From: a candidate division WOR-3 bacterium
Lineage (GTDB): Bacteria > Hydrothermota > Tepidihabitantia > Tepidihabitantales > JAOUPE01
Length of the DNA stretch: 64,000 nt
Assembly: GCA_039801565.1 (NCBI GenBank)
Contig: JBDRUX010000001.1
Span: 51,403-115,402, forward strand
Direction of reading: 5' to 3'
Of this stretch, positions 10,885 to 64,000 are shown one piece after another (position 1 is the first letter of the stretch; every line of letters begins with the position of its first letter). A program made the translations under genes and the position numbers. The notes beneath the pieces were generated by a model. The model was not told where the DNA came from and searched no databases. It was given only the letters and a program-made list of their open reading frames with translations.

Positions 10885-10886
10885 GA

Positions 10887-46383: not shown

Positions 46384-46455
46384 TTTCTTATCCTTACCAC
46401 GGGTTGATATTACAAAAATTAATTTTAGAAAAAATCATTGCTCGGCGCACGGACG

Positions 46456-46540
46456 ATATCCACACAGATATCCACAAAGTTCGAATATTTAAGTTTCTGA
46501 TAATTCGAGACTTAATCATCAGAACCAGAAATTTCCACAA
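46456..46540. promoter_or_regulatory. cluster of three DnaA-box-like 9-mers (ATATCCACA x2, TTTCCACAA) immediately upstream of dnaA; oriC / dnaA promoter candidate
   Basis: Boxes at 46456-46464, 46468-46476 and 46532-46540 match the TTATCCACA consensus at 8/9 or 7/9 positions. An AT-rich stretch follows at about 46560-46640. Confidence 0.45.
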
Positions 46541-47972
46541 ATCGTTTTTCATTGTCTTTCTTTGTATGATATAATATTTAAAAAAAGCTATTAGTCAAGT
46601 TACAATATTGAAACTAATTTTTCAATGTTACGCCGGTGGGGTTAAAAATGTCATACCTCTTTGCAATGTTAAACAATCCCTAAAGAGGTATTCAAATTTT
46701 CTCTTTCTTCTACGGCGCGCGGGGATGGTGTTTTAAGGATAACAATCCTAAATTCGGTTAGTGCCTGACCTATTTGCGCTGGCTCAGCCTCGGATACTTT
46801 TGATAATTAAATCAGTATAAAGGGTCTCGAACGTGCCGTATTTTCTACCGTTTTTAGAGCAAGCGTATTTTCCCAGTGGTTAAGAAATTCTGGCGACAAG
46901 ATGTTTTTCGGAGTTGGTCATTAAAGAAGAAGTAAATTTAATTTTTTCATCAATAGCTGGTATCTAATAATGATTTTAAGGAAAAACATCTTTCCGAACT
47001 AATTTGCCGAATTTTCCAGTTTCAAGTCTTTTTGGGATATCGTTTCTGTTTGATACTTTAGGGTATGAGGATGGTGGGTAGTGTTTTATGAGAGATGGTG
47101 ACGGCCTATTTTTAAAAATTAAGCTAAATGGCAATAATTGATTATTGGGTTCGTTCCTTAATTACTTAAATTTCTTTTCTAATTTCGATGGTGGTTTTAT
47201 TGCAAAGTGGTTTGTGCGTTTTTAATATCGGTCAATATTGCGCTTCTATTCCTTAGTCGATATGCTGTTTTGCTGGCTTTTGCATTTACCTTTTAAACAA
47301 CTTCGTTAACTACCACGAGACAAACCTTAGCGCTCGGTCAGAAATTTTTAATAGCATTCTTAAAATAGTGGCAAACCAAGGAACGAAAATTAGAAATTGC
47401 CGGTGGGGCGATACTTTAATCCAGCCGGTTTCTTAATCCAGTTTTTAAGAATAAAATTAAGTGGAAAGCCACTCAAGAGGACATTGCTGAGATAGATTGG
47501 CCCTTGTGAGAAATCGAATGATAACTGATTTGTGGTTACAGAAGGTATTATTGGAACTTAAGTTATTAATTTAGTTAGGGTCATCAATAATACTCCCTGT
47601 TTTACATAAGCTTAAAAAATTTAATTATTAAACCATAAGACACAGAATCGAAACGGCAGTTTACTTTTCGGCTATTGGTTTTTATGCCCCAGGTGAGCCA
47701 AAAGCCAACAAAAATTTTTGACAACAAAGTGAACAAATGTTTCACGTGAAACATTTAATGAATTAAAGTTAAGATTCTTCTGTCTTGTAGTCTTGATATG
47801 GGCTTATCTCCAATTTAGTTGGGGATTTTTAGAATAAAGTATTCCGTATCTGAAGTCAATAAACTCGCTGTTTGATATACTTATAATTGTTTATCTCTTC
47901 TAATCCACTGGGGTTAATTCAGATACTCGCTATCAGCCTGGGCACAATGATACTTAATATTTACGGATCCTA

Positions 47973-48440
47973 TTAATCCCTCGATTGAAATCCGCTACCA
48001 CTATTTAATATCTTCTCGCTCCGACCTGCGTCCATCCAAACCACCTGTTCCGTCTTGTAATCTAATACCGCGGTCAAATACTTATGTCTATGCCAAATCG
48101 CAATCTCATCAATAGCCAAAATCCTTAAACCCCTATAGTCCACTTCGCCAAATTCCTCTTGCAATGCCTACTTGTATCAATCTCTTTCACTGTTTTCCAA
48201 CTAATCCTAAATGCTCTGCAACCTCTTTAGCGCTCATATGCTTACATAAAGCGGGAATGCACCCGGAGATAAACTTTGGAAGTAGCAAGATTCAAATTCC
48301 TAATTGCTCGGTTGGTATGAGAATGAATTTCCATCTACCTTGGGCGGATTTCGGACAAAGGGTACAAAGTGGAGTAAAGCGGCGATCCGAAGTAAAATTG
48401 ATGATTGCCTTTAAACAATTTTTTCTACTGACTGCCCAAT
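47973..48440 (-). pseudogene. frameshifted remnant of an ISL3-family transposase
   Basis: The minus-strand translation gives SAKEVAEHLGL..WKTVKEID followed, in another frame, by YRGLRILAIDEIAIWHRHKYLTAVLDYKTEQVVWMDAGRSEKIL. These match the ISL3 motifs (W-x-TV ... IDE-x-A ... H-x-Y-x-T-v-v-D ... GR). Stops occur in all frames around it. Confidence 0.45.
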
Positions 48441-49607
48441 AATTTTACGGAGGTAATAAGGGAAGTATGTTTTGATATTTGCAACAGGTAATTTGGTTGC
48501 CTCACTTTAATTATAGACGCATATTTGTAATCTCAGATAATTACATCACCTTTAATTTCCAACTTTTTGGATAATAACCAAATTTATAAGCTCTTCTTAA
48601 TTAAGTATGAAAACAATGTGTTAGACGAGATGGGTTTTAAAATTTGGGATATTTTCGCCGTAAGTGTTTTTAATTTAATTACTTATATATTCTTCAAACT
48701 TAACTGCTTGTTCTAACTTCCTTGCGTGCTCCGTGAGACGAACTCGCGGATTTTCTCGACAGTAATCAATTGGATATAAATAAGTGGCAGCGCGGGAGAC
48801 GCTTGTAATTGTAGTAATCACTCCAACGTCCCATAGCCGCTAAAGCCTTGTAGCAACTCCCTAAATCTTCTACAGTTAAACCTTCGTCACAATGAGTCCG
48901 ATGCAATCTTTCCGATCGACTATTAGACTCAGGATGCGCTACACGAGTCTTAACATCAATTGAGCCTTGAGCCCGTTAAGTTAACGTTCCGCCCGCAGCG
49001 TCAAGGTGAAATTCCGATGCTCAGGAACCCGACTATAAAATTATTCCATAATATCTACCAAGCAATACCAACGCGGTAAAATAAAAAAGATACATCAACT
49101 TTATATCCAAAACTTAATCCAAGTGGTTTGACTAAAGCAGTCTTACTAAACTTTGCTTTGCGGTCTCTCTTCGGCATAAGAGGTTATACTCATTTAAAAT
49201 CCGATAATGTCGAAGATAAACTACATCGTTTTCATCTACCGGCTACTATACCGTCTACTAAGGTCGGTCGTTTATTATGACTTGTGGTGTTGGAAAGTAT
49301 TGGTCGGCTTATTGTTTGTCTCAAAAGCAACAATAAATCCACTCTTATCCGTCGCACAAATTTGAGCATTGCAAGTCCGTTTTATCATCCTATTACCCAT
49401 CAATATAAACCGATAATCCTAATCAACTAACAAAACCTGGATCTTCGCCAGCAGTAACTGTTCCTATTCATTCTTGACCAATTTTCTTTCGCCGCTCTTG
49501 AATCTTGCCTACATCCGCAATCCTCTGTTCTGACTTTACCAGCGAAACATCAATCTGAATCTTTATCCTATTTTAGGAAAGACCTCTGCGGAGATAAGAC
49601 CAAGAAA

Positions 49608-49892
49608 CTAATTTACAGATTTCTTATATTCGGCAAGCCAAAGCTTTGCCTTACCTTTAAGGACTTTTAAGATTTTATCGAGGTCTTTTTGCTCAATTAA
49701 GATTACGCCGGGTAAAATTCTTTGATGCGGGATTTGGGCTAAAATTCCAGCTCTTGAATACCGGTACTTACCAAACTGAGAGAAGTCGGTATAACCATAG
49801 AGCTTACGGCGGATTTTTATGGCTTGGGTTGGGGTTAAGTTGCTTTTCATTTTAAAGGCGACAAGCAATAAATTAGCATTTACTTTTTTCAT
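49608..49892 (-). CDS. hypothetical protein
   Basis: 94-aa ORF with no recognisable motifs. Sits at the edge of the gene-poor region. Confidence 0.3.
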   Translation of the reverse strand: MKKVNANLLLVAFKMKSNLTPTQAIKIRRKLYGYTDFSQFGKYRYSRAGILAQIPHQRILPGVILIEQKDLDKILKVLKGKAKLWLAEYKKSVN

Positions 49893-50105
49893 ATAAGAAG
49901 TATAGTTAACGTTTTTGGTTTGTCAAGGCGGAATTTGAAATCTTGCTTCAAAATTTGTCCTAAATTAGATGAGCCGGGTTAATGGTTACTACATTTTTGC
50001 ACAGTCTCGATTAAGACGAGAACTGTCGAACCTTAGAATAGGTGGGAATGATAAAGAGCAAAAATTCAAAACCACATTTTTTTTCAGAGTTCTCATATAT
50101 AAGCA

Positions 50106-50133
50106 TTGACAACGATTTTGCTAAGCGTATAAT
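50106..50133 (+). promoter_or_regulatory. sigma-70 consensus promoter TTGACA-N16-TATAAT, 10 nt upstream of the cupin ATG (near-leaderless)
   Basis: ttgacaacgattttgctaagcgtataat. The ATG is at 50143. Confidence 0.5.
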
Positions 50134-50142
50134 ACCATTACG

Positions 50143-50466: not shown

Positions 50467-50711
50467 TAAAATGAATGCACAATTAACGACCGCAAGCAAT
50501 AAATTTTCCTTGACAAAGTCCTAAACCGAGTTATGATTTTATGTAATTCTAATGGTTGCGAAGCAATGGACTTGGGGTTTGGCAGCGATTTTACCGAAGG
50601 CGATAAAATTTTAGGAATTGCTCTTTTCCTTTATTTTTGTGAACAGACTGATTCGCCACAAACCTAATGGCGAATCGGTTAAAACTTGAAAACAAAAAGA
50701 AGGAGGAACAA

Positions 50712-53700
50712 ATGGATTTCAGCAGTAATAAACAAAAGAGGTTAGGCAAGAAGACCTGCTTTTCGATTTTTACCTATATGCTAATCCTATTAGCACTCGT
50801 AAGCACCGGACTCCAAGCTGGTTCAATTACCGAAAAGTTCAATTTTGCAAAAAGTGAAATAGGATTCAAGAAGATTGGCGAATTCGATTTGCCGGTAATA
50901 CGGGATTGGCTTTATACCGCGGAGGTTGGTAAGCCAATGATTCCTTATCTAATTTTTCAGGTTTTAGTTCCACCAACGGCAGAAGTTACTGAGGTAAAGG
51001 TCTTGTCATTTAAGAAAGTTGAAGTTGAAGGCAAATATTATATTCATCCCAGTCAACCACCAGTGCCAATTTCTTACAAAGGCGAGATTCCTTTTGTGCC
51101 ACCTGATGAAGCAACTTATAATTCAACTGAAGAGTATCCAGCCCGGTTGGTTGATTTTGTGCCGACTGGTTCAAAAAGTGGCTACCGGATTGCTGGGGTT
51201 GAGGTTTATCCTTTACATTATGTGCCTAAGGAACGGAGGCTTTTCTTATACACCGAACTGGTCTTAGAAATTATTTATGAAGAAGGTAAGGTTGCACCGC
51301 AACTTTTAACCGAATCCCAGAAGAGACTTTTTGGTCAAGAAGTGCGAAGTTTAATAATCAACAAAAAGGATTTAAAACGTTTTGAACCACCGACGAAACT
51401 GATTGACCAAGGTAACGAGATTGATTACTTGATTATAACCAGTAGCACCTTGGAATCGAATTTCCAGCCCTTAGCCGAATGGAAGACTAAAAAAGGCTGG
51501 AACACCAAAATTCGAAATACTAACTGGATAAATACTAATTATTCCGGCCGGGACTTACAAGAAAAAATCCGAAATTACATTCGAACCTGTTTCGCCGATT
51601 CAGGTTTGAAGTTTGTGCTTCTGGCAGGTGATAATTCGATAATCCCAAAACGAGGAACATATGCCTGGGTTTCACCTCATATTGACAGTTTCATACCTTG
51701 CGATTTGTATTTTGCTGATTTAGATTGGAGTTGGGATGGTAACCAAAACAATGTTTTTGGCGATACTTGGACAATAGGCGGTAGGCGAGACACGGTTGAC
51801 CTTTATTATGATGTTTACATCGGAAGGGCATCAGTAGAAACAGCGAGCGAAATTTCCAATTTCTTGAATAAATTATTTACCTATGAGAAGAATCCAAATA
51901 CTGATTACATCAAAAGAATCCTTTTACCTTGGGGGGTACTATGGTCAGGTTATGATAGCAAACAATCGCAAGATTCGATAGCGAAATATACACCGGCTGG
52001 TTGGACTGACCGCTATATCAATGATACAAGAGTGGTTAATGAAGTTAGGGATTCGTTAAATAATGGTTTTCAATTCTGCCATTTGGTTGGGCATGGCAAT
52101 GATGTTGGGGTTTATTGGACAAGCACCGGACCAGCAATGTATCATACCGGCCATCCCGGAACACAGACCAATGTTAATAAGTATCTTATTGCTAATTCGA
52201 TTGCTTGCTATCCAGGTAATTTTGAATACTCGGATTGTCTTGCTGAATCTATGGTGAATGTCCAGAATTGTGCGGTGGCGGTGATTATGAATTCAAGATA
52301 TGGTTGGGGAACGCCGCCTAACATTGGTCCTTCAGAACTTCTTGATTTTCAATTTTATTATTTCTTTTTTAATTATGATACCTTCCGAATCGGTATCACC
52401 CATGCCGAATCGAAAGAATTTTATCGGAACTCAGCTCTTAACCAACAGGTTTGGCGTTGGTGTTATTACGAGTTAAATCTCTTTGGTTGTCCGGAGATGC
52501 CGATGTGGCAGGATGTTCCTTTGACAATGACTCTTGCCTTTGACGATACAATAAACACTGGTAGCCAAACTTTTACTGTAACCGTCACTGACCCGAGTGA
52601 TGCGCCGGTTGTGAATGCTTTAGTTTGTCTTTGGAAAGGAAATGAAGTTTATGTGCGGGGGTATACTAATGCCAGCGGTATCGTTAACTTTACAATAAAT
52701 CCTACCACTGTTGGTCAAATGTTTGTTACCGTCTCGGCTTTTAATCATTACCCGAAAGAGGATACTTGTTACATTATTGAGCAGAACGAGGATGTCGGCG
52801 TTACGACTATTATTACACCAACCGGCAATATTGACTCGAGTGCGGTCTCCTCAATTATACCTCAAGCAACAATTCATAACTATAGCATTTCCGATACGCT
52901 AAGTTTCCCAGTAATTTTCTATATCTATGACAGTGGCTGGAATTTAGTATGGGCGGATACTCAGCAGATATTAGACCTTGGTCCTAACCGCGATACGACA
53001 ATAAATTTTGCTGCTTTAGGCATTGAATTGTCACGTGGCATTTATAACACTAAATGCACAACCGCCCTGGTTGGTGATATTAACCCATCCAATGACTGGC
53101 AGGATAGTTCATTTACGGTTATTGTCCACGATGCTGGGATGATTGATATTGTGACGCCAACCGGACTTATTAAGAAAAATAGTGTTATCACACCTCAAGT
53201 AACAGTGCGGAATTTTGGCAGTGTTAGAGATTCTTTTGATGTGATATTAACGATTGGAGCGACTTATGTTGATACCGTCTTCACAACCCTTGACCCTAAC
53301 AACCAAACAACACTTAGTTTTAATCCTTGGACCGCAACTGCAATTGGGACATTTCAAGTTCGCTGCACCACCGCTTTAATTGGCGATTTAGTCACAGTCA
53401 ATGATACTTTATCGGATTCGGTAATAGTCTACGATGATGATGTCGGTGTGGTGGCAATTTTGGAGCCAGTTGGTCCGACCGATTCGACTGCGACGATTGT
53501 GCCCCGCTGTAGTGTTTACAATTATGGTTCATCACCAGCTACTTTTTCGGTTACTTTTAGAATCTTAGAAGCGGGTTATAGCAATACGCAAACCGTTACC
53601 GCATTAGCCCCCAATACCGGCACAGCGATTCCTTTTGCGCCCTGGTTGGTCGGGCCAAGGGGCAATTATACGACAAGATGTTCAACCGGAATGAGTCCCG

Positions 53701-56700
53701 ACACCAATGCATTGAACGACACTTTATCCGGTTCGTTTACGATTCGGGTGCATGATGTTGGTGTTACGGAAATTCTTGCCCCAATTGGTGTCGTTGCCTT
53801 AAATAGTTCAATTACACCCCAAGCAGTAGTTAGAAATTTTGGTACCGAGACCGATACCTTTGATGTTTCGCTTGTTGTTCTAACATCGCCGTCGAGTTCT
53901 TGGACGGAAACTGGAATAATTTTAGATTCTGGTGCGGTTGATACGGTCAGTTTTGCCCCGAACTGGACCGCAAGTCCTTTAGGAACATTTGAAGTCCGTT
54001 GTTCGACATCTTTAACTAATGATTTAGTCGTTGCTAATAATCTGAAGATTGATACGGTCATTGTTACGGATTTTGATGTTGGCGTAGTAGCGATTCTTGC
54101 TCCGGTAGACACATTAGATTCGACTGCTACCCTTGTTCCACAATGTAGTGTTTATAATTATGGTTCATCAGCGGTAACTTTCCCGGTGACTTTCCGAATC
54201 TTAGAAGCGGGTTATACCGCTACCGAGACAGTAATTGGCCTGCCACCAAATACTGGGACAACGGTTTCCTTTGCGCCTTGGACAGTAGGACCGCGCGGTT
54301 CTTATACAACCCGATGTTCAACCGAACTTATGCCAGATTTTAATCCAGTAAACGACACTTTATCTGGTTCATTTGTGATTCGAGTGCACGATGTTGGGGT
54401 GACTGAGATACTAGCACCAGTGGATACCGTGATTCTTAATCACGCTTATAATCCGAAAGCGGTTGTCACTAACTTTGGGTCGGTGCGTGAGACTTTTAAT
54501 GTCTCATTGGTTATTCTTCCGACAATACCACCACCAAATTCGTTTACGCAATCCGTCACATTACCGGCAGGTGAAACCGATACGGTAGACTTTAATTTAG
54601 CACTCTGGGTGGCAACACCACTTGGAACTCATCAGGTCCGCTGTTCTACGGATTTGGCTAACGATTTAGTCCCCAATAACAATCTAATAATTGATTCGGT
54701 GACGGTTTCCGATGCGGATGTTGGAGTGACGGCAATCGTCTTTCCTACCGGCAATGTTGATTCGACAGCAACAATAACACCACTGGTTAGTTTTTATAAC
54801 TATGGTACTAATCCAGCGTCATTCCCAGCAATTCTTACTTTCACCGGGCCAGCTAATTATGTTGATACTCAAATTGTCAATTTGGCCGGTAATAGTGGCT
54901 TGACGATACCGTTTGACCCTTGGACTGTTGGACCGCGTGGCACTTATCAGGTGAAATGCACTACTGCCCTTGCCTTTGACACCGCAGCAGTAAATGATAC
55001 GATGTCAGGTTTCTTTTCCATTATTGTTCATGATGTCGCGACAATTGAAATTATTGCGCCGAAGGGAGTGATGCCGTTGAATCGAAGTGTCACTGCCCAA
55101 GCGGTAGTACGAAATAATGGAACCCAAGCTGAGAGTGTTGATGTTTCGATGATTGTTTTGACACCAGTGCCGACTACTTGGACGGTGACGATAGATAATT
55201 TAGGGGCTGGTGTGACCGATACGGTTGATTTTGGGTTATGGACGGCAACACCACTTGGCACCCATCAGGTTCGTTGTTCGACCGATTTGGCTAATGATTT
55301 AGTTCCAAGTAATAATCTAATAATTGATTCGGTGACGGTTTCCGATGCGGATGTTGGAGTGACCGAAATCTTGTATCCAACTGGAACAATTGATTCAACG
55401 GTATCATTGATTCCAGAAGCGGTTGTCTTCAATTATGGTTCGCAAGCTATATCCTTCCCAGTTATTATGAGAATTTTACCACCAGCAACTTATGTTAATA
55501 TTCAGTGGGTGAATAATCTTCCACCCAACACCGCTGATACAGTTCAATTTGCGCCTTGGACAATCGGACCGCGGGGAACTTATACTGTTCGATGTTCTAC
55601 CGCTTTAAATATTGATACCAGTGCGGTAAACGACACAGTCTCACGACAATTTGAAATCATTGTTCACGATGTTGGAACTACTGAAATTCTTGCCCCCAAG
55701 GGTATTGTTCCTTTAGGTAGTCCGGTTACACCTCGTGCAGTGGTGAGAAATTTTGGGACTGAGACCGATACCTTTGATGTCTCGCTTACCGTTCTGACCG
55801 TGCCACCAAGTTCTTGGACCCAAACCGGGATAGTCTTGAACCCAGGTGAAGTTGATACCGTCAGTTTCGCACCAAACTGGACAGCAGGTCCGGTTGGAAT
55901 TTTCCAGGTTCGCTGCTCAACTTCGATGGTGCAGGATTCGGTATTGGCTAATAATCTTCAAATTGACACGGTTCAGGTGGTCGCATTTGATGTTGGTGTA
56001 AATGCCATTGTTGCACCAGTTGGAACCATTGATTCTTCTACTACTCCAACGGTTGTGCCTCAGGCAAGCATAACGAATTATGCAACTATACCGGTTAGTT
56101 TCCCCGCAATTTTCCGTATCACCCGTGGTGCTTATATTTGGGCTGATACCCAGACTATTAATCTAAATGCTGGACAAACTACTACGGTTAGTTTTGACCC
56201 TTGGACAGTTGGGCAAACCGGTATTTACACAACACGCTGCACAACTGGTTTGATTGGTGATGTCGACCCAACTAATAATCACACTGACAGTACTTTCCGA
56301 GTTGTAACCCCGGGTGGTGATGTGGGAGTGACCGCATTGATTCTTAACCCATCTGGACCGAATGTTGATTCCGGCACAACCATTCAAATTTCTGCCCGTG
56401 TTAAAAACTTCGGTACCGAGGTCTCCACTTTCCAGGTGAAGACAAAGATTGGTACTTTTTATCTCGACAGCCTACCGACACCACTTACCTTAAATCCTGG
56501 CGATTCCGCAACGGTAAGTTTTAGCAATTGGGTTGCAGTCCGGCGTGGCCAACACATTGTGCGATGTAGCACCGAATTAGATGGCGACATTGACCATTCT
56601 AATGACCGTCAGACAAGAAATATTACAGTCTTGGTTCGCGATGTGCGAACCTATTCAATTTTGGCACCAACCGGCAATATTGATTCAACCGCTAATCCAA

Positions 56701-59168
56701 TCACACCACAGGCAATAGTTGAAAATTCAGGCAATGTTTTAGTAGATAGCTTCCCGGTAATATTCACTATAACTGGACCAGCCACCTGGACGAATACTCA
56801 GATGGTTAGGAATTTGCCGGCTGGACAACAGCGGACAGTAGACTTTGCACCTTGGACAATTGGTCCGGTTGGTGCTTATACAACGGCTTGTAGCACCGCT
56901 TATGCCCTTGATATGAACCCGTCTAATGACCGGCGTACCTCACAATTCTGGATTCAAAGGGTTGATATCAGCGTTGACTCCATTGTCTCACCATTAGGTG
57001 TGGTAGATTCCAATTCGGTTGTGCCAGTCCAAGCCTGGGTATCAAACCAAGGCACCTCAAACAAAACCTTCTTGGCTATTTTCCGAATCGGCACCTTTTA
57101 TACTGATACTGTAATCATAACCCTTAATTCACTTGCCGATTCGTTAGTCACCTTTGACACTTGGCGTATCTCACAACCAAAAGGGATTTATCCAGTCCAA
57201 TGCACGACAGTGATTGCCAATGATGCCAATCCCAATAATAACCAAGATACAGGTTCGGTGCAAGTGCGCGTCAAAGATGTCGCAATAGATTCAATCATTT
57301 CGCCAAGCCCAGTTATTCCACCCGGCATAATGAATCCAATTGCCCGAGTCATCAATAATGGCAGTGATTCACTTGATTTTTATGTCTATTTCCGAATTCG
57401 TAGTGCCAGTGGTACGGTTTATTTCGATTCCGCTTATGTTCCACTCTTGGCACCGGATTCGAGTTACGACGCCACTTTTCCGGCTTGGGATGCAGTGCCT
57501 GGTATTTATATTGCTCGTTGTTCCTTAGCAATAGCTGGTGATATGGTTCGAAGCAATGACACCTTATCAATTACTTTTAATGTTGCGACTCGGGATGTGG
57601 GTGTCTCAAGAATTGTCTTTCCAGGAAGACGGACTTTATTAGGACCAATTCAACCGCGCGTTGTTGTGAAAAACTATTCCAGTACTATCGAATCATTCTG
57701 GACTTGGTTCAGCATCACTGATACAGCGAGTGGTAGTAATGTCTATTTTGATTCGGCATTTTGTGCCGACTTAGGTCCTTGGATGGAACAAATTCTTGAC
57801 TTCCCAATCTGGACCGCTAACCTTGGCGGTTATCGGCTTGTTTCGTATACGGCTTTAGTTGGTGATGATAGCACAGCTAATGATACAGTTACTGCCTACT
57901 GTCAGGTTGATTCAATTATTTTGCCAAAATGGGCACAAAAAATGGATATGCCACTTGGACCAAGAGGCAGACCAGTGAAACGGGGTGGTTGTATTACCTT
58001 TGGTGGTAATAACCTCTTATTCGCCCTCAAAGGTGCCGGTACCAACGAATTCTACTCCTACAATATTACCTCGGACACTTGGGTAACCTTGGAAACGATA
58101 CCCTATGCCTTAAATAAGAAAAAGAAAGTAAAGGGTGGCTCTGCAATTTGTTATGATGGCAATAACACAATATTTGCCCTCAAGGGCAATAACACTCTTG
58201 AATTCTGGGCTTATTCAATTCCTTACTCTACCTGGATCCAATTAACTGATGTCCCAGCTGGGAGCAAACGAGCTAAAGGCGGCTCGGGTCTTGCTTTCGT
58301 CCCAGGTCCAACTGGTGGTTTAATCTATTGTCTGAAAGGTAGTAAGACCTTTGAGTTTTATGCCTATTCCATTGCCACTAATACTTGGATTTTCCTGCGC
58401 AATGCGCCAGCCGGCTATCGGGGCAAACCATTTGACAAAGGTAGTTGTCTCACCTATGACCCAAGTACCAATCAAATCTTTGCCTTAAAAGGCTATGAAA
58501 ACGAATTCTTCGCCTATGATATCATTGCTGATTCTTGGACAATTAAAGCATCGCTACCAATATATGGCTTTGCTGGACAAAAACGAGCCAAAGAAGGTGC
58601 AGCACTGGTTGCCGATGGTTCTGGTCTTATCTATGCCTTCAAAGGCAATAATTCACAAGAATTCTGGGTCTATCACATTGCCGGTGACTGGTGGGAACAG
58701 GTTGACCCGATTCCGATTGGACCAAACAATCGCAAAGTCAACCAAGGTGGCGCTCTCGCCTATGTTCCGAGCATTGGCAAAATTTATGCTCTAAAAGGAA
58801 ATCGAACTCGAGAACTTTGGGCTTATGACCCCAATGCATTATCACTTTTGAACTCGTTGAACGATTTGAACTCTTCATCGGGCACTATGGAAACAGAAAC
58901 CCGTCCGCTTGAGTTAATTAACTTCAAAGTAACCCCGAACCCGAACAAAGGAAATTTCATATTAAAATACAATGTAGATAAGATTCGTCCGATTACAGTT
59001 AAACTTTACAATGCCTTGGGTGAACGAGTCTTTGAACAAACTAAGCAAGTTACGAATAAATCAGGAACGATTACGATTGACACTGAAAAACTGGCGATCG
59101 GCATCTACATTATGCGGATAGAGTTCGATGGCGTAAGGTATAGCGAAAAGGTTCTAATTCAGAGGTAA
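50712..59168 (+). CDS. Giant T9SS-secreted gingipain-family (peptidase C25) protein with ~15 CARDB-like repeats, a Kelch-like beta-propeller and a T9SS C-terminal sorting domain
   Basis: AAGGAGG sits 6 nt upstream of the ATG at 50712, so the track's 50667 start is likely over-extended. Signal peptide. C25 catalytic contexts (LLAGDNSIIP, HLVGHGND, NSIACYPGNF). Repeats of about 100 aa (DVGVTEILAP...TPQAVVRNFG...VRCST). About 8 blades of the (K)GG-x-[LA]-x~10-IYALKG-x4-EFWAY-x5-W type. CTD VTPNPNKGNF...KLYNALGERV...GIYIMRI...KVLIQR. Confidence 0.8.
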   Translation: MDFSSNKQKRLGKKTCFSIFTYMLILLALVSTGLQAGSITEKFNFAKSEIGFKKIGEFDLPVIRDWLYTAEVGKPMIPYLIFQVLVPPTAEVTEVKVLSFKKVEVEGKYYIHPSQPPVPISYKGEIPFVPPDEATYNSTEEYPARLVDFVPTGSKSGYRIAGVEVYPLHYVPKERRLFLYTELVLEIIYEEGKVAPQLLTESQKRLFGQEVRSLIINKKDLKRFEPPTKLIDQGNEIDYLIITSSTLESNFQPLAEWKTKKGWNTKIRNTNWINTNYSGRDLQEKIRNYIRTCFADSGLKFVLLAGDNSIIPKRGTYAWVSPHIDSFIPCDLYFADLDWSWDGNQNNVFGDTWTIGGRRDTVDLYYDVYIGRASVETASEISNFLNKLFTYEKNPNTDYIKRILLPWGVLWSGYDSKQSQDSIAKYTPAGWTDRYINDTRVVNEVRDSLNNGFQFCHLVGHGNDVGVYWTSTGPAMYHTGHPGTQTNVNKYLIANSIACYPGNFEYSDCLAESMVNVQNCAVAVIMNSRYGWGTPPNIGPSELLDFQFYYFFFNYDTFRIGITHAESKEFYRNSALNQQVWRWCYYELNLFGCPEMPMWQDVPLTMTLAFDDTINTGSQTFTVTVTDPSDAPVVNALVCLWKGNEVYVRGYTNASGIVNFTINPTTVGQMFVTVSAFNHYPKEDTCYIIEQNEDVGVTTIITPTGNIDSSAVSSIIPQATIHNYSISDTLSFPVIFYIYDSGWNLVWADTQQILDLGPNRDTTINFAALGIELSRGIYNTKCTTALVGDINPSNDWQDSSFTVIVHDAGMIDIVTPTGLIKKNSVITPQVTVRNFGSVRDSFDVILTIGATYVDTVFTTLDPNNQTTLSFNPWTATAIGTFQVRCTTALIGDLVTVNDTLSDSVIVYDDDVGVVAILEPVGPTDSTATIVPRCSVYNYGSSPATFSVTFRILEAGYSNTQTVTALAPNTGTAIPFAPWLVGPRGNYTTRCSTGMSPDTNALNDTLSGSFTIRVHDVGVTEILAPIGVVALNSSITPQAVVRNFGTETDTFDVSLVVLTSPSSSWTETGIILDSGAVDTVSFAPNWTASPLGTFEVRCSTSLTNDLVVANNLKIDTVIVTDFDVGVVAILAPVDTLDSTATLVPQCSVYNYGSSAVTFPVTFRILEAGYTATETVIGLPPNTGTTVSFAPWTVGPRGSYTTRCSTELMPDFNPVNDTLSGSFVIRVHDVGVTEILAPVDTVILNHAYNPKAVVTNFGSVRETFNVSLVILPTIPPPNSFTQSVTLPAGETDTVDFNLALWVATPLGTHQVRCSTDLANDLVPNNNLIIDSVTVSDADVGVTAIVFPTGNVDSTATITPLVSFYNYGTNPASFPAILTFTGPANYVDTQIVNLAGNSGLTIPFDPWTVGPRGTYQVKCTTALAFDTAAVNDTMSGFFSIIVHDVATIEIIAPKGVMPLNRSVTAQAVVRNNGTQAESVDVSMIVLTPVPTTWTVTIDNLGAGVTDTVDFGLWTATPLGTHQVRCSTDLANDLVPSNNLIIDSVTVSDADVGVTEILYPTGTIDSTVSLIPEAVVFNYGSQAISFPVIMRILPPATYVNIQWVNNLPPNTADTVQFAPWTIGPRGTYTVRCSTALNIDTSAVNDTVSRQFEIIVHDVGTTEILAPKGIVPLGSPVTPRAVVRNFGTETDTFDVSLTVLTVPPSSWTQTGIVLNPGEVDTVSFAPNWTAGPVGIFQVRCSTSMVQDSVLANNLQIDTVQVVAFDVGVNAIVAPVGTIDSSTTPTVVPQASITNYATIPVSFPAIFRITRGAYIWADTQTINLNAGQTTTVSFDPWTVGQTGIYTTRCTTGLIGDVDPTNNHTDSTFRVVTPGGDVGVTALILNPSGPNVDSGTTIQISARVKNFGTEVSTFQVKTKIGTFYLDSLPTPLTLNPGDSATVSFSNWVAVRRGQHIVRCSTELDGDIDHSNDRQTRNITVLVRDVRTYSILAPTGNIDSTANPITPQAIVENSGNVLVDSFPVIFTITGPATWTNTQMVRNLPAGQQRTVDFAPWTIGPVGAYTTACSTAYALDMNPSNDRRTSQFWIQRVDISVDSIVSPLGVVDSNSVVPVQAWVSNQGTSNKTFLAIFRIGTFYTDTVIITLNSLADSLVTFDTWRISQPKGIYPVQCTTVIANDANPNNNQDTGSVQVRVKDVAIDSIISPSPVIPPGIMNPIARVINNGSDSLDFYVYFRIRSASGTVYFDSAYVPLLAPDSSYDATFPAWDAVPGIYIARCSLAIAGDMVRSNDTLSITFNVATRDVGVSRIVFPGRRTLLGPIQPRVVVKNYSSTIESFWTWFSITDTASGSNVYFDSAFCADLGPWMEQILDFPIWTANLGGYRLVSYTALVGDDSTANDTVTAYCQVDSIILPKWAQKMDMPLGPRGRPVKRGGCITFGGNNLLFALKGAGTNEFYSYNITSDTWVTLETIPYALNKKKKVKGGSAICYDGNNTIFALKGNNTLEFWAYSIPYSTWIQLTDVPAGSKRAKGGSGLAFVPGPTGGLIYCLKGSKTFEFYAYSIATNTWIFLRNAPAGYRGKPFDKGSCLTYDPSTNQIFALKGYENEFFAYDIIADSWTIKASLPIYGFAGQKRAKEGAALVADGSGLIYAFKGNNSQEFWVYHIAGDWWEQVDPIPIGPNNRKVNQGGALAYVPSIGKIYALKGNRTRELWAYDPNALSLLNSLNDLNSSSGTMETETRPLELINFKVTPNPNKGNFILKYNVDKIRPITVKLYNALGERVFEQTKQVTNKSGTITIDTEKLAIGIYIMRIEFDGVRYSEKVLIQR

Positions 59169-59185: not shown

Positions 59186-59219
59186 AGCCCGCACCTTTTG
59201 GTGCGGGCTTTCCCTTTTG
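59186..59219 (+). terminator. rho-independent terminator after the giant C25 gene
   Basis: agcccgcacc-tttt-ggtgcgggct followed by ttcccttttgg. Confidence 0.55.
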
Positions 59220-59291
59220 GTAAATAACTTGACTTTGGTTCTTTATGAGGGTAAATTGTTGGCAATGCAAGCGAAACAATCGGTCCATTAT

Positions 59292-61202
59292 ATGCCTGAT
59301 AAAAAATTATGGTGTGCTGTAGCCATTTTAATTTTGGTAGCGAAAAATCCAATTTACTCCGCTAAGACGAAGCAACTCAACAATCCAGTGAATTGGGATA
59401 CAACAAGAATTTATTCAGGGTCCGGAACATTACAAAAAATTTCAGTGGGTAATAAATTAAAAGGAGTAAACGATGATACCTTTCGGATAGCTACCGGTCA
59501 ATCAACACTCAGACGAAATGCTTTAATCCTCACTGATACTTCCAGTGCACCACCAATGAAATGGCGAGCCGATTCTATTTTCTCAGGAATGGATAATAAT
59601 GGCATATTGAGTGTTGCAATTGGTGATGTTGATGGTGATGGAACAAATGAGGTTATTTTTGGTCAAGCTGGGGGTAACCTGAAAAGAGTTAAATGGATTG
59701 CAAATTCCTGGAATGTAACTCAGATTGATTCTCAAGGTGGTCAGGTGTATGACATTGCGATTGGCGATGCCGATAATAATGGAATCCAAGATATAATTTT
59801 TGCTCGTTACAATTATGTTTTTAGAAGTTATTGGGCTGGCAGTTCTTGGCAGACCAATCAAATCTGGTCTGGGGATGGTAATCGTTGCCACGGCGTTGCA
59901 ATTGGTGATTTTGATACTTCTTCCTCAGGAAATGAGGTTGTTGCGGTTACTTATAATGGCAAGGCGGTGCGAATTAGATGGAATGGTTCAAGCTGGGAAA
60001 ATTATGTAATGTATGATAATTCCAGTTGTCGGTTTTATGAACCAGCGATTGGTGATTTTGATATTTTAAATCTTGGACAAGAGGTTGCTTTCGGGAATGC
60101 TTTGCCAACCCCAAGTTATGGGTCAGTTATTGAACTTTTTGGCTCAGGTACAAACTGGTCAGTTAGAGCGATTTATAATCCGATAGGTAGTGAAGCTTGT
60201 TACAATCTTGCGATTGGCGATATCTTTGATGAGCATGAAGGTCTGGAAGTTATTGCTATTGGTATTAGAAGCGGCGACGATTCAATTCGAGTTATTTATG
60301 GAAGCGGTTCAAGTTGGACAAATCAAGCAATTATAGGTTTTTCTCAGATATTAGGTGACAATGGCATTGCCGTTAGTGATATTAATAAATACCGAAATCA
60401 TAATCAGGAAATTGTCTTTGCCCGAAATACAATCCTTTACGAAGCTGAACAGAGAATTCCTCCCGGACCAACTATAACTAATATCTCCCATAACCCAAGA
60501 ATTCCTTTGTCATCAGAAAGTGTTACAGTAAGAGCAAAAATTCTCGACACATTGACCTTAACTGCTGATAGCCTTTATTATGCAATAAATAGTCCAAACA
60601 ATTGGCAATCAATTTATCATTCCAATCTTGACTCATTTTATTATTACACAATTCCCACTCAAGATACCGGTGCAATAATTTATTATTTTATAACCGCCAA
60701 AAATAATGGCGGTGGCAGAAGCCAAAGCCTAATCTTTTCCTATCAAGTTGCTTACGAACATAGTATCTATCAGATTCAATATACTTCTGGTTCTTCTGAT
60801 ACTTCACCGGATAATAACAAATATGTTTTTACTAAAGGAATTGTAACTGGGATATTTGGACGATTTTTCAATATTGAAGAGAAGCCCGGAGGTGCCTGGC
60901 ACGGTATTCATATTCGAAGACCAGCGTTTAGTGATACCACACCCAATTTAGTTATTGGCGATAGTGTTGAAGTTCTCGGTCGCGTGCAGGAATTAGCCAA
61001 TCAGACTGTAATCAATGTCTTTTATGATAGTGGCGGTCGAGTGCAAAGAATTGAGCCAGCACGACCATTACCCTGCACCACCCTAACCACAATTAGCCAA
61101 ATCGCTGAATCGTTAGAAGGCACATTGGTGAGGATTGATACTCTGCGTTTCAAAATTACCGGAATATTTCAACCCAACACAGTTTATTGGGTATATAATT
61201 AG
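59292..61202 (+). CDS. FG-GAP-repeat beta-propeller protein; probable N-terminal part of a split T9SS cargo gene
   Basis: Signal peptide MPDKKLWCAVAILILVA. The track's 59217 start overlaps the upstream terminator. FG-GAP motifs IGDVDGDGTNEVIFG, IGDADNNGIQDIIF and IGDFDTSSSGNEVV. No T9SS CTD. The stop at 61200 comes 2 nt after the downstream frame opens. Confidence 0.55.
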   Translation: MPDKKLWCAVAILILVAKNPIYSAKTKQLNNPVNWDTTRIYSGSGTLQKISVGNKLKGVNDDTFRIATGQSTLRRNALILTDTSSAPPMKWRADSIFSGMDNNGILSVAIGDVDGDGTNEVIFGQAGGNLKRVKWIANSWNVTQIDSQGGQVYDIAIGDADNNGIQDIIFARYNYVFRSYWAGSSWQTNQIWSGDGNRCHGVAIGDFDTSSSGNEVVAVTYNGKAVRIRWNGSSWENYVMYDNSSCRFYEPAIGDFDILNLGQEVAFGNALPTPSYGSVIELFGSGTNWSVRAIYNPIGSEACYNLAIGDIFDEHEGLEVIAIGIRSGDDSIRVIYGSGSSWTNQAIIGFSQILGDNGIAVSDINKYRNHNQEIVFARNTILYEAEQRIPPGPTITNISHNPRIPLSSESVTVRAKILDTLTLTADSLYYAINSPNNWQSIYHSNLDSFYYYTIPTQDTGAIIYYFITAKNNGGGRSQSLIFSYQVAYEHSIYQIQYTSGSSDTSPDNNKYVFTKGIVTGIFGRFFNIEEKPGGAWHGIHIRRPAFSDTTPNLVIGDSVEVLGRVQELANQTVINVFYDSGGRVQRIEPARPLPCTTLTTISQIAESLEGTLVRIDTLRFKITGIFQPNTVYWVYN

Positions 61203-61324
61203 CCGAAACCGAATCAATTCCAGTATTCATTCGCAGTGAAACCAATATACCCAATGAATCAATCCCAAATGGCTTTTTCCTTCTGACTGGCTGTTTAAAT
61301 CAATATATTCAGGATTATCAAATT

Positions 61325-63214
61325 ATGCCAAGAATAATAGAAGATTTTAGTCTCTTGCTAGTTGATTTTGGTCCAACTGAAATTTTATCTCCGCCGGATA
61401 CCGTCAATTATGGTGATAGTATCTTCCCAAAGGTTATAATCCGTAACTACCAAATGACGCCGGTGACGAACCTATCAGTCTGGCTTCGGATTGGTAACAC
61501 TTATACCAACGAGCGATTCTTCCCAAAACTGGCATCCCAGCCTTATGACACTATTGAATTTAATCTATGGTTAGGCAGTCCAGGGTGGCAGGAGATTAAG
61601 ACTTGGACGAGATTGCGCAACGACTTAAATCCCAATAACGACACGCTCTTAGATTCAGTTTATGTCCGTCCGCCGGCTTTACCACCTGATGTTGGCGTAA
61701 CCGAAATCATCCTAATGAATGATACCGTTTCAATTGGTGATACTTTCATTCCAAAGGCAATAGTAAAGAATTTCAGCCCAACACCGGCTGTTAATTTCTT
61801 TGTCCATTTTAAGATTGGCAATGTTTTCTCCGATTCGGTCTTTATACTAAATTTTGGTCCTTATCAGATTGATACAATCCAATTCCAACCTTGGGTTGCT
61901 CAACTCGGTATTTATCAACTAACCGCCTATACTAATCTTTACCTTGACCCTAATCCAAATAATGACACTGCCTATGGTTCGTTATTGGTTAGAACTATCA
62001 CTGGTGGTTGGCAGGAGCGAAGTAGTATGCCAATTGGTAGTGGGAAAAGAGTCAAGCAAGGCGGTGCTTTGGTTTATACCCGCCACGATACAATTTATGC
62101 CCTCAAAGGCAATAACACTCTTGAATTTTATGCCTATAATACAACTACCGATTCCTGGGTGAAAAAAGAATCGTTGCCGATGCTTGGCACAAAGCCAAAA
62201 CGGGTGAAAAAAGGCGCGGCATTAACCTATGACAGATGGAATAATAAAATCTATGCCTTAAAAGGTAATAATACCCGTGAGTTCTGGCAATACGACCTAT
62301 TAAAAGATAGCTGGATTTATTTAGGCGAAGTCCCTTCGGCAAATGGCAAGGGAATAAAAGGCGGGTCAGCACTCGCTTGTGCTAAAATTGGTCAGAATAT
62401 TTACATCTACTTTATGAAGGGCACAAAAACTTCCGAGTTCTACGCCTATGATGCCACTCCCGATACTTGGATTAAAAGTTTGAAACCGATTCCGATTCTG
62501 CCGAGCGGCAAACCAATGAAAGATGGCAGTTGTATGGTCAAAGGTGATAGTGTCCTATTTTGTCTAAAAGGTGGCTATAATGACTTCTATGCCTATAGTA
62601 TTGGTTCGGATACCTGGTATCTAAAGAAGTCACTACCGATAATGGGTGCCAGCCAGCGAAAAAAGAAAGTAAAAGATGGTGCTGGTTTATGTTATGACGA
62701 TGCTCATAATGTTGTTTATTGCCTCAAAGGCGGCAATACCCAGGAATTTTGGGCTTATTATCCAGATTTGGACACCTGGATGGAATTAGAGACAATTCCA
62801 AAAGGATCTTCTAACAAACGAGTAAAAAGTGGTGGTGCTTTAACTTTTGCTGATGGTTTAATTTTCGCTTTAAAAGGTAATAATACTCGTGAATTATGGT
62901 GTTATACGCCGAACTCAATCAAACTTCAAAACCCAATTCGCTTATCTGCGGTGTGCGCGAATCAAACTGCAATACCCAGGGGCATTACAATCCAAAGCAA
63001 AAGCAATACAATAAATATTAAATTCGGTCTAAATATTCCATTAATTGATTACAGTTTATACGATGTTTTAGGCAGGGTGGTTAAAAGCGAAAAAATTAAG
63101 ATAAAAAATAATATCTTATCAATTAATATGAAAGGTATGCCTTCCGGCATTTATATTCTCAAATTGAATTATAATAGGACCACAATTACCCAAAAAATCA
63201 TCTTAAATCATTAA
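61325..63214 (+). CDS. CARDB-like repeats + Kelch-like propeller + T9SS CTD; probable C-terminal part of the same split gene (lacks its own signal peptide)
   Basis: Three CARDB-like repeats (DFGPTEILSPPDTVNYGDSIFPKVIIRNY). Seven IYALKGNNTxEF blades. CTD IDYSLYDVLGRVV...GIYILKL...KIILNH. The reading frame is open back to 61199. Confidence 0.55.
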   Translation: MPRIIEDFSLLLVDFGPTEILSPPDTVNYGDSIFPKVIIRNYQMTPVTNLSVWLRIGNTYTNERFFPKLASQPYDTIEFNLWLGSPGWQEIKTWTRLRNDLNPNNDTLLDSVYVRPPALPPDVGVTEIILMNDTVSIGDTFIPKAIVKNFSPTPAVNFFVHFKIGNVFSDSVFILNFGPYQIDTIQFQPWVAQLGIYQLTAYTNLYLDPNPNNDTAYGSLLVRTITGGWQERSSMPIGSGKRVKQGGALVYTRHDTIYALKGNNTLEFYAYNTTTDSWVKKESLPMLGTKPKRVKKGAALTYDRWNNKIYALKGNNTREFWQYDLLKDSWIYLGEVPSANGKGIKGGSALACAKIGQNIYIYFMKGTKTSEFYAYDATPDTWIKSLKPIPILPSGKPMKDGSCMVKGDSVLFCLKGGYNDFYAYSIGSDTWYLKKSLPIMGASQRKKKVKDGAGLCYDDAHNVVYCLKGGNTQEFWAYYPDLDTWMELETIPKGSSNKRVKSGGALTFADGLIFALKGNNTRELWCYTPNSIKLQNPIRLSAVCANQTAIPRGITIQSKSNTINIKFGLNIPLIDYSLYDVLGRVVKSEKIKIKNNILSINMKGMPSGIYILKLNYNRTTITQKIILNH

Positions 63215-63333
63215 GAAGACCAGCAGAAAAGAATCTGTAAAATAGTCAAAAACTTGAAATATATTTCAACCTAAAAATGACCGATTTTTTCGTCTATCGT
63301 GTTGGTCTTCCGTCGGTTACACCAATTTTCCCT

Positions 63334-63635
63334 TAGGGAGGGGGTACCGTATAGGGGGTGACCCCGTAGGCTACCCCCTAAGCTATCCCGTAGGTTGCTT
63401 GGGGAGTTGCCTCGGGAGTTCCTTCTGGAGCTGGTTGGTAGGCAGGTTCGGGAGCGACTTCGTAAGCAACTTCCGAAGCAGGTTAGGAGGCTACTTGGGG
63501 AGCAACCAGGGGAGCTACCCCGTAGGCTGCCCAGTAGGCTACCTCGTAAGCAAGCCGGTAGGCTGGCATCTTTCCCAATTTCGAAATTCGAAATTCTTTA
63601 AGAAAACCCCGTAGGCTACCTCGTGGGCTGGGGTT
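63334..63635 (+). repeat. Copy B (full length) of the dispersed repeat family: G-rich head plus ~15 units of a 12-nt periodic array
   Basis: Head TTAGGGAGGGGGTACCG. The ccccgtaggctaccccctaag word is shared with copy A. Units ggttgcttgggg / agttgcctcggg / agttccttctgg / agctggttggta / ggcaggttcggg ... with consensus rGCnrsyTnGGr. The ORF-track ORFs at 63395 and 63399 are translations of this array. Confidence 0.6.
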
Positions 63636-63679
63636 AGAAAAACAAATCCAACTAACAATTTCTAAATAACAGCTTTCGA

Positions 63680-64000
63680 TTACCTCGCGAGAATTATTTT
63701 TCTTGTTACTCCATAACCTTTTGTTTTAAATCTTAGAAAATAAATTCCCGAAGTCAGTGGATTATTATTGGAATCGGTGCCATCCCAAATCAAGGAATAT
63801 TCCCCTGGATTCTCAATATTCTCTTTCAGAACCTTAATCAATTTACCGCCAGTATCATAAACCTTAAGACTTATCATCGCACGTCGAGCGATTTGGTATC
63901 TAATCACCGTCCGCTTGGAAAAAGGATTAGGTTGGCTAACTTCTAATTTCGGCTCAAGGGTAAAGTCAAATCTACCTTCTTCTATACCCGACGGAAAATC
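63680..64000 (-). CDS. 3' end (T9SS C-terminal sorting domain) of a secreted protein whose body lies beyond the window end
   Basis: The minus-strand translation continues past 63907 (…LEVSQPNPFSKRTVIRYQIARRAMISLKVYDTGGKLIKVL...SGIYFLRF...RKIILAR), which is the Por/T9SS CTD pattern. Partial. Confidence 0.6.
   Translation of the reverse strand, partial: DFPSGIEEGRFDFTLEPKLEVSQPNPFSKRTVIRYQIARRAMISLKVYDTGGKLIKVLKENIENPGEYSLIWDGTDSNNNPLTSGIYFLRFKTKGYGVTRKIILAR

What the first reader, a model, noticed from the sequence alone, without database searches (positions are those of the whole stretch)
59292..63214. T9SS cargo gene split into two ORFs at a 2-nt frame junction
The upstream ORF has a signal peptide and FG-GAP blades but no CTD. 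The downstream ORF starts without a signal peptide yet carries CARDB repeats, Kelch-like blades and a CTD. The downstream frame is open from 61199, and the upstream frame stops at 61200-61202 (gta tat aat tag / ta tat aat tag cc). A single-base indel near 61197-61201 would fuse them into one protein of about 1300 aa whose architecture mirrors the C-terminal two-thirds of the giant protease. This is either a fresh pseudogene, a sequencing error in an AT run, or slippage-dependent expression.
Basis: seen in the sequence. Interest (0 to 1): 0.5.

Follow-up and report, generated by a model that had tools for sequence, protein, structure and literature searches.

The report
Frameshift-split secreted surface protein gene
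Two adjacent reading frames in this WOR-3 bacterial genome are the halves of one ~1,300-residue secreted surface-protein gene broken by a missing base, which is an ordinary recent pseudogene or a consensus error, not a special expression mechanism.

Summary
ORF1 (59292-61202) ends at TAG 61200-61202. The ORF2 frame is open from 61199, and its first start codon is ATG 61325. Re-using or adding one base at 61199 gives a 1,307-aa protein.

All six orthologous loci from other WOR-3 metagenomes cross this point in one frame, and their complete proteins are 1,274-1,313 aa. All six read AAY/AGT TTT GCC GAA where the window reads AAT TA GCC GAA, so the window has lost one base and carries a T>A change.

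The break lies inside a conserved tandem OB-fold module (Pfam DUF5689). It models at pLDDT 96.8.

There is no slippery heptamer, no unusual downstream RNA structure and no repeat tract, and no ortholog shares the shift. Programmed frameshifting and phase variation are therefore rejected.

dN/dS against the closest ortholog is the same upstream (0.16) and downstream (0.15), so the lesion is very recent or an artefact. No other gene in the window is broken, and the site is not a homopolymer. I favour a real recent mutation (about 0.6) over an assembly error (about 0.33).

As sequenced, the signal peptide and the T9SS sorting domain sit on different polypeptides, so the cargo would not be secreted. 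This is an ordinary finding of low interest.

The parts
59186..59209 (+). Intrinsic terminator of the upstream C25 protease gene, which marks the finding gene as a separate transcription unit
   Evidence: 10-bp stem with 8 GC pairs followed by a T-run
59229..59257 (+). Promoter-like site upstream of the gene (TTGACT-17-TAAATT)
   Evidence: Consensus scan only, 9 of 12 positions. It overlaps the TTG 59217 reading, which favours ATG 59292 as the start.
59292..61202 (+). ORF1, the N-terminal 636 codons of the broken gene plus the premature TAG. It encodes a signal peptide, an FG-GAP beta-propeller, an Ig-like spacer, OB1 and the first part of OB2.
59292..59360 (+). Signal-peptide-like N-terminus (MPDKK-LWCAVAILILVA-KNPIYSA)
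   Evidence: Kyte-Doolittle maximum of 3.29 over CAVAILILVA and a positively charged n-region. Orthologs have equivalent hydrophobic N-termini. No dedicated signal-peptide predictor was run.
59589..60447 (+). FG-GAP/VCBS-type beta-propeller region (approximate limits)
   Evidence: PF13517 at 31.4 bits against a cutoff of 26.9, and repeated GDxDxDG motifs
60756..61361 (+). Tandem OB-fold module (DUF5689-like), fused residues 489-690. It is encoded across the frame break, in the ORF1 frame up to 61199 and in the ORF2 frame from 61199.
   Evidence: AF2 gives pLDDT 96.8. Foldseek matches HIN/RPA/Teb1 tandem OB folds.
61196..61202 (+). Frame junction TAATTAG. TAA 61196-98 closes the ORF2 frame upstream and TAG 61200-02 closes ORF1. 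The inferred 1-nt loss lies at 61198-61200, where orthologs read AAT TTT GCC.
61199..63214 (+). ORF2 frame, the C-terminal 671 codons of the broken gene. It encodes the rest of OB2, two CARDB-like repeats, a Kelch-like propeller and the T9SS sorting domain.
61325..61327 (+). First ATG of ORF2. This is an internal, non-conserved Met inside the conserved YQ[IV]xPR motif of OB2, not an ancestral start.
   Evidence: Orthologs have M, I or V at this column. Only a weak AGGA lies 10 nt upstream.
61346..61994 (+). Two CARDB-like Ig repeats (approximate limits)
   Evidence: 30-36% identity to the CARDB repeats of the neighbouring protease. Orthologs give only weak, sub-threshold PF07705 hits.
62000..62909 (+). 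Kelch-like beta-propeller (approximate limits)
   Evidence: Kelch-family Pfam hits, all below the curated cutoffs. 36% identity to the propeller of the protease.
63005..63211 (+). T9SS type A C-terminal sorting domain
   Evidence: PF18962 at 33.4 bits against 27, and TIGR04183 at 36.3 bits against 23

Best explanation
ORF1 and ORF2 are one ancestral gene for a ~1,307-aa type IX secretion (T9SS) cargo protein of a candidate division WOR-3 bacterium. Its order of domains is signal peptide, FG-GAP beta-propeller, Ig-like spacer, tandem OB-fold (DUF5689-like) module, two CARDB-like repeats, Kelch-like propeller and type A sorting domain.

In this genome the gene has lost one base at 61198-61200. 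Orthologs read AAT TTT GCC and the window reads AAT TA GCC. The loss shifts the frame after the second strand of the second OB barrel and creates an immediate TAG. I take this to be a real, very recent, non-programmed inactivating mutation.

The consequences are inferred. The ORF1 product would be exported by Sec but has a truncated OB domain and no sorting domain, so the T9SS cannot export it. Any ORF2 product made from the fortuitous internal ATG has no signal peptide, stays in the cytoplasm and cannot use its sorting domain. The surface protein is therefore lost.

Shown: a single ancestral gene, the position and nature of the lesion, the split through a folded domain, and the absence of recoding signals. 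Inferred: that the base is truly missing in the cells and not only in the consensus, the fate of the fragments, and any DNA-binding role of the OB module.
For: Orthologs are single genes. P0001 is 1,313 aa at 82% identity and 100% coverage, and P0002, P0003 and P0006 are 1,274-1,306 aa with 97-99% coverage. tblastn crosses the junction in one frame in L001-L006 and is split only in the window.

All six orthologs have the codons AAY/AGT TTT GCC GAA at the site.

The break is inside a domain. PF18942 reaches its threshold only when the halves are joined. The AF2 model of the repaired 202 aa has pLDDT 96.8 and pTM 0.92, with the junction at the end of strand 143-148 of the second barrel. In the best 150 of 619 distant homologs, 96 aligned stretches cross the junction position.

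The ORF2 ATG is a variable internal residue of a conserved motif.

The lesion is recent. dN/dS against L001 is 0.162 upstream and 0.150 downstream, and the gene has no second lesion.

Evidence that favours a real mutation over an error:
- Every other gene in the window gives full-length Pfam matches, including intact 8.5-kb and 5.3-kb ORFs.
- The window is 100% identical over 4,561 bp to an independent Logan assembly contig. Its indels against a 98%-identical strain within the protease gene are frame-preserving.
- The site has no run longer than TT, and the difference from the orthologs needs a substitution as well as a deletion.
- Gene decay occurs nearby, as an ISL3 transposase remnant.
- Another ortholog (L005) carries an independent premature TAG.
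Against: No reads were available, so a consensus or polishing error at a strain-variable position cannot be excluded. One lesion in an otherwise fully constrained 3.9-kb gene is what an artefact would also look like. No second assembly covering this exact site was found. The ancestral codon in this lineage is unknown (TTA or TAT are both possible), so the argument that this is not a simple homopolymer error is only suggestive.
Confidence: 0.6

Rival explanations
1. Sequencing, assembly or polishing artefact. The gene is intact in the cells and the consensus dropped one base, for example at a strain-polymorphic codition such as a TTT/TAT/TTA codon in a metagenome-assembled genome.
For: The gene has a single lesion and no relaxation of constraint downstream (dN/dS 0.15 against 0.16). 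The source is a MAG, since the exact DnaA protein is NCBI MEO0113920.1 from a WOR-3 MAG. Strain variation of about 2% exists in this population. No independent assembly of the site was found.
Against: No other frame break occurs in about 55 kb of coding sequence in the window. The window is 100% identical to an independent contig where they overlap. The site has no homopolymer longer than 2 nt, and the difference from all orthologs is a deletion plus a substitution.
Confidence: 0.33
2. Programmed recoding. A -1 ribosomal frameshift at AAU-UAG, or transcriptional slippage, produces the full-length protein from the split gene.
For: The two frames abut with a 1-nt overlap, and the 0-frame stop lies directly at the shift site. 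A stop at that position could in principle pause ribosomes.
Against: There is no X XXY YYZ heptamer. After a -1 slip, tRNA-Asn on AAU would re-pair with UAA at only one of three positions (sequence). There is no A or T run for transcriptional slippage. The downstream RNA fold is unremarkable (z = -0.44). The 12-bp hairpin that encloses the site is not conserved in L001. None of six orthologs has the shift. All 20 proteins from the first homolog search that contain the complete 202-residue module have it uninterrupted.
Confidence: 0.02
3. Functional gene fission or phase variation. The two ORFs are expressed separately and both are used, or the break is a reversible on/off switch for a surface antigen.
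For: The genome makes little use of Shine-Dalgarno sites, so re-initiation at ATG 61325 (AGGA 10 nt upstream) cannot be excluded. Surface proteins are common targets of phase variation (general knowledge). A second ortholog, in L005, is also interrupted.
Against: The break cuts a single OB barrel. ORF2 lacks a signal peptide, so its sorting domain is useless, and ORF1 lacks a sorting domain. There is no simple-sequence repeat at the site. Removing one unit of the local (TA)3 would create a TAA (sequence). No database protein ends or starts at this point.
Confidence: 0.04

Closest known systems
T9SS type A sorting-domain cargo proteins (TIGR04183 / PF18962), for example the Porphyromonas gingivalis gingipains
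   Same: Like these proteins, the repaired gene has an N-terminal Sec signal, modular beta-rich passenger domains and a C-terminal ~70-residue sorting domain above both curated cutoffs. It lies directly downstream of a gingipain-family (Peptidase_C25) giant protease, and its last ~600 residues are 36% identical to the end of that protease.
   Different: The gene has no protease domain of its own. Its passenger is an FG-GAP propeller plus a tandem OB module that is not found in the protease. As sequenced, the signal peptide and the sorting domain are on different polypeptides. The organism is WOR-3, not Bacteroidota. T9SS machinery genes were not examined.
DUF5689 (PF18942) surface proteins: B. 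thetaiotaomicron DdbD and R. anatipestifer RA0C_RS04920
   Same: The repaired junction segment matches PF18942 above its cutoff. Its model resembles HIN-type tandem OB DNA-binding domains, including p202 (4jbm), the structure to which DdbD was compared (bioRxiv 10.1101/2025.03.18.642099). RA0C_RS04920 is needed for natural transformation (PMC8459023).
   Different: Only the C-terminal half of the Pfam profile (101-216 of 217) is matched. Here the module is embedded in a 1,300-aa T9SS cargo and is not a partner of a TonB-dependent transporter. DNA binding is untested for this protein and is only proposed for DdbD.
Ordinary frameshift pseudogenes, as flagged 'frameshifted' by genome annotation pipelines
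   Same: The break is a single 1-nt frame change inside an otherwise conserved gene. Its two halves match adjacent parts of the same full-length homologs.
   Different: Nothing differs in kind. The only notable point is how recent it is, with no further decay.
Programmed frameshift genes (dnaX and IS3-type -1, prfB +1)
   Same: Both have two overlapping frames that together encode one protein, with a stop codon at the shift site.
   Different: The window has no slippery motif, no stimulatory structure and no conservation of the shift in orthologs.

Membership tests
T9SS type A cargo (TIGR04183 / PF18962) | C-terminal sorting domain scoring above the curated cutoff | tested here: met
   TIGR04183 scores 36.3 bits against a cutoff of 23 and PF18962 scores 33.4 against 27, at the end of ORF2
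T9SS type A cargo (TIGR04183 / PF18962) | Sec signal peptide on the same polypeptide as the sorting domain | tested here: not met
   As sequenced, the signal-peptide-like N-terminus is on ORF1 and the sorting domain is on ORF2.
T9SS type A cargo (TIGR04183 / PF18962) | T9SS machinery (SprA/PorV/PorU and others) encoded in the genome | not tested
   No machinery gene was seen in the 64-kb window. Three other genes in the window carry the sorting domain: 41017-43986, 50667-59168 and 63680-63907 on the minus strand.
DUF5689 (PF18942) | Pfam match at or above the gathering score | tested here: met
   The repaired 202-aa segment scores 31.8 bits against 28.6, covering profile positions 101-216 of 217 and spanning the junction. 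Neither ORF alone gives a hit.
Tandem OB-fold (HIN/RPA-like) nucleic-acid-binding modules | Two five-stranded OB barrels in tandem | tested here: met
   The AF2 model has pLDDT 96.8. Foldseek matches Teb1 AB, the HIN domains of MNDA, p202, IFI16 and AIM2, and RPA70, with E from 7e-5 to 1e-3. TM-scores are 0.35-0.40 for the pair and about 0.57 for single barrels.
Tandem OB-fold (HIN/RPA-like) nucleic-acid-binding modules | Binds DNA | not testable with these tools
   Inference from the fold and from the DdbD literature only
Programmed -1 ribosomal frameshift | Slippery heptamer X XXY YYZ at the frame overlap | tested here: not met
   The only permissible shift site is ...UAU AAU UAG, and re-pairing there is poor
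Programmed -1 ribosomal frameshift | Downstream stimulatory RNA structure | tested here: not met
   The fold of 61185-61320 has z = -0.44, and the hairpin that encloses the site is not conserved in L001
Programmed -1 ribosomal frameshift | Frameshift conserved in orthologs | tested here: not met
   None of six orthologous loci is shifted
Phase-variable contingency locus | Homopolymer or simple-sequence repeat tract at the shift site | tested here: not met
   TRF finds no array near 61200. The longest single-base run at the site is 2 nt (TT or AA), and (TA)3 is the only short repeat.
Peptidase C25 (gingipain family) | C25 catalytic domain | tested here: not met
   Neither ORF1 nor ORF2 has a PF01364 hit. 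Only the upstream neighbour has it, at 167.8 bits.

The most novel reading that the evidence does not exclude
The frameshift is real and is one instance of recurrent, possibly selected, loss of a surface-displayed tandem-OB (putatively DNA-binding) T9SS cargo that is conserved next to a giant gingipain-like protease in WOR-3 bacteria. Two of the seven orthologous loci examined carry independent, very recent disruptions: the frameshift here and a TGG>TAG change in L005. A neighbouring cargo gene in L005 has a TGG>TGA change. Natural populations might therefore be shedding or switching these exposed proteins under phage, predator or other surface-directed selection.
Probability: 0.1. Interest if true: 0.35.

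Novelty: already known. Interest (0 to 1): 0.12.

Why it matters
The main value is for annotation. The two ORFs should be recorded as one frameshifted gene or pseudogene, not as two hypothetical proteins, and the organism should not be credited with this surface protein unless reads show the gene is intact.

There is a modest by-product. This family is always placed downstream of a giant C25 protease. It is a candidate extracellular nucleic-acid-binding surface protein in an uncultivated phylum.

Tried and rejected
- Exact-product look-ups for ORF2 and for the protease, using two possible starts, found nothing. No independent assembly of the junction could therefore be examined. Only DnaA gave hits.
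- The first AF2 run, with 10 sequences, failed at pLDDT 33. It succeeded after the alignment was deepened with hits from the representative search.
- The search for homologous proteins with the 202-aa junction segment returned no hits, although homologs plainly exist. I treat this as a limitation of the word index, not as evidence.
- A sequence search of the PDB gave nothing meaningful.
- The genome-contig scan returned only one relative and not the source genome.
- Stop-codon readthrough of the TAG is rejected, because the 0-frame continuation (PKPNQFQYSF...) does not match the orthologs and stops after 27 codons.
- A 2-nt deletion as the repair is rejected, because it would remove the conserved Phe column.
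- The protease ORF and ORF1 are in the same frame and separated by one stop. I considered them as a possible larger fusion and rejected this. The protease ends with a complete sorting domain, a strong terminator follows, and orthologs have separate genes.
- Literature searches for T9SS in WOR-3 found nothing.
Full report
**Observation**

The upstream frame reads ...NTVYWVYN and stops at TAG 61200-61202. The other frame has TAA at 61196-61198 and is then open from 61199 (LAETESIPVFIRSE...) to 63214, with its first possible start at ATG 61325. A frame change can join the two only within 1-2 nt. An open frame of 671 codons has a chance probability of about 1e-19 at this composition.

Pfam and NCBIfam support the domain content. 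ORF1 has FG-GAP repeats and no sorting domain. ORF2 has Kelch-type propeller hits, all below the Pfam cutoffs, and a T9SS type A sorting domain above both curated cutoffs. ORF1 starting at ATG 59292 has a typical charged n-region followed by a hydrophobic region. ORF2 starts MPRIIEDF..., which is not signal-peptide-like.

A strong terminator at 59186-59209 and a promoter-like site at 59229-59257 precede ATG 59292. The gene is therefore its own transcription unit, and the longer TTG 59217 reading is unlikely.

**One gene, not two**

A search with the fused 1,307-aa sequence found full-length single proteins. P0001 is 1,313 aa at 82% identity and 100% coverage. P0002, P0003 and P0006 are 1,274-1,306 aa at 63-67% identity and 97-99% coverage. 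The hits that a source names are from candidate division WOR-3.

In the alignment, these proteins read YWxYN-F-AETESIxVFIRSE straight across the junction, with invariant columns on both sides. At the DNA level, tblastn with a 280-aa junction segment gives one HSP in one frame in each of six orthologous loci (L001-L006). It gives two HSPs in two frames only in the window.

All six orthologs carry AAY/AGT TTT GCC GAA, where the window has AAT TA GCC GAA. The window has therefore lost one base and has a T>A difference in the Phe codon. The intermediate could have been TTA or TAT.

The Met that starts ORF2 sits in the conserved motif YQ[IV]xPR, where orthologs have M, I or V. It is an incidental internal codon.

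**The break cuts a folded domain**

Neither ORF alone matches DUF5689. The repaired segment does, at 28.6 bits in a 522-aa context and 31.8 bits as a 202-aa segment, against a cutoff of 28.6. The match spans the junction.

A HMMER scan of 1.84 billion representatives found 619 homologs of the 202-aa segment. In 96 of the best 150, the aligned stretch runs across the junction position.

With a 53-sequence alignment, AlphaFold2 models the repaired segment at pLDDT 96.8 and pTM 0.92 as two beta-barrels. The junction, at segment residue 148/149, falls at the end of a strand of the second barrel.

Foldseek matches tandem OB-fold nucleic-acid-binding modules: Teb1 AB, the HIN domains of MNDA, p202, IFI16 and AIM2, RPA70 and CST subunits. 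E-values run from 7e-5 to 1e-3. TM-scores are modest for the pair (0.35-0.40) and about 0.57 for single barrels.

This agrees with the literature on DUF5689. DdbD of B. thetaiotaomicron was proposed as a surface DNA-binding protein resembling p202 (bioRxiv 10.1101/2025.03.18.642099). A DUF5689 protein is required for natural transformation in Riemerella (PMC8459023). DNA binding by the WOR-3 protein is only an inference.

**Not programmed, not a switch**

The only position where a ribosome could change frame is with AAU in the P site and UAG in the A site. There is no X XXY YYZ motif, and tRNA-Asn would re-pair badly after a -1 slip (sequence).

No A or T run exists for transcriptional slippage, and no tandem repeat lies at the site. 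The downstream RNA is unremarkable (z = -0.44). The 12-bp hairpin that happens to enclose the site is not conserved in the closest ortholog. No ortholog shares the shift.

Reading through the TAG in frame gives unrelated sequence and a stop after 27 codons.

**Real mutation or artefact**

dN/dS between the window and L001 is 0.162 upstream and 0.150 downstream. The downstream half has therefore been under the same purifying selection for essentially all of the divergence. The lesion is very recent or not real.

Several points favour a real lesion.
- All other substantial ORFs in the window give full-length Pfam matches, including 2,833-aa and 1,780-aa proteins. A scan for abutting frames found no other split domain.
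- The window is 100% identical to an independent Logan contig over 4,561 bp.
- It differs from a 98%-identical strain (GCA_965649045.1). Within the protease gene those indels preserve the frame.
- The site is not a homopolymer.

Two points keep the artefact reading open. It is a single lesion in a MAG from a strain-diverse population, and I could not find any second assembly of the site.

I put a real recent mutation at about 0.6 and an artefact at about 0.33.

**Consequences (inferred)**

T9SS cargo must first cross the inner membrane through Sec and is then recognised through its C-terminal domain. As sequenced, ORF1 has the signal but no sorting domain and ends in half an OB barrel. ORF2 has the sorting domain but no signal. 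The surface protein would not be made.

**Comparison with the protease**

ORF2 aligns to residues 2240-2833 of the neighbouring 2,833-aa C25 protease at 36% identity, covering CARDB-like repeats, the Kelch-like propeller and the sorting domain. ORF1 has no similarity to the protease.

The pair of protease followed by this gene is conserved in L001, L002, L004 and L005.

**Verdict**

This is an ordinary frameshift-disrupted gene, or a one-base consensus error, in a WOR-3 MAG. It has no special mechanism and is of low interest.

Noticed in passing
L005:11559-11561 and L005:17866-17868: In the 251-kb metagenome contig Ga0315274_10000025, the ortholog of this gene has an in-frame TAG replacing the conserved Trp of PDLDTW-ELE, and the sequence downstream is still conserved through the sorting domain. 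A nearby paralogous CARDB/sorting-domain gene has an in-frame TGA replacing the conserved Trp of a CARDB motif. Both are TGG to stop (G>A) changes.
   Followed up: partly
window 50667-59168 (+): A 2,833-aa gingipain-family protein carries the C25 propeptide and catalytic domain, a long array of CARDB-like repeats, a Kelch-like propeller and a T9SS sorting domain. Its ortholog lies directly upstream of the finding gene's ortholog in four related loci.
   Followed up: partly
window 44923-50142: dnaA (44923-46383, minus strand) is followed by about 3.7 kb with no ORF of 100 aa or more. This stretch contains a 63-aa fragment matching the start of an ISL3 transposase domain (47976-48164, minus strand, below threshold). 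It is probably the origin region plus decayed mobile-element remnants.
   Followed up: partly
window 63330-63640, 36859-36972 (possibly 14383-14541): A GC-rich intergenic repeat has an imperfect 12-nt period and the motif CCGTAGGCTRCC, with 6 copies found against 0.07 expected. Positions 63361-63486 are 86-90% identical to 36859-36972. A similar-looking stretch at 14383-14541 was seen only through its translation.
   Followed up: partly
window 22086-27428 (-): A 1,780-aa single ORF combines a Ser/Thr protein kinase, a STAND/AAA_16 NTPase, TPR repeats, a GAF domain, a sigma-54 activator AAA+ domain and a Fis-type HTH. This is an unusually long signalling fusion.
   Followed up: no
window 9478-13346 (-): A histidine kinase with an FG-GAP beta-propeller sensor region (10887-13346) is followed 2 nt later by a sigma-54-dependent response regulator (9478-10884).
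   Followed up: no
window 21617-21919 (-): A 100-aa ORF has a hydrophobic N-terminus and six copies of a proline-rich unit, DGIPQPPKPVPP.
   Followed up: no
window 61185-61196 / 61245-61256: A 12-bp inverted repeat (TATTGGGTATAT / ATATACCCAATG) encloses the frameshift site. It is not complementary in the closest ortholog L001, and the region's fold energy is not unusual.
   Followed up: yes
window 63680-63907 (-): This is the C-terminal FlgD-Ig/T9SS-type sorting domain of a convergent gene that runs off the end of the window. Together with 41017-43986, the window holds four genes with such domains.
   Followed up: no
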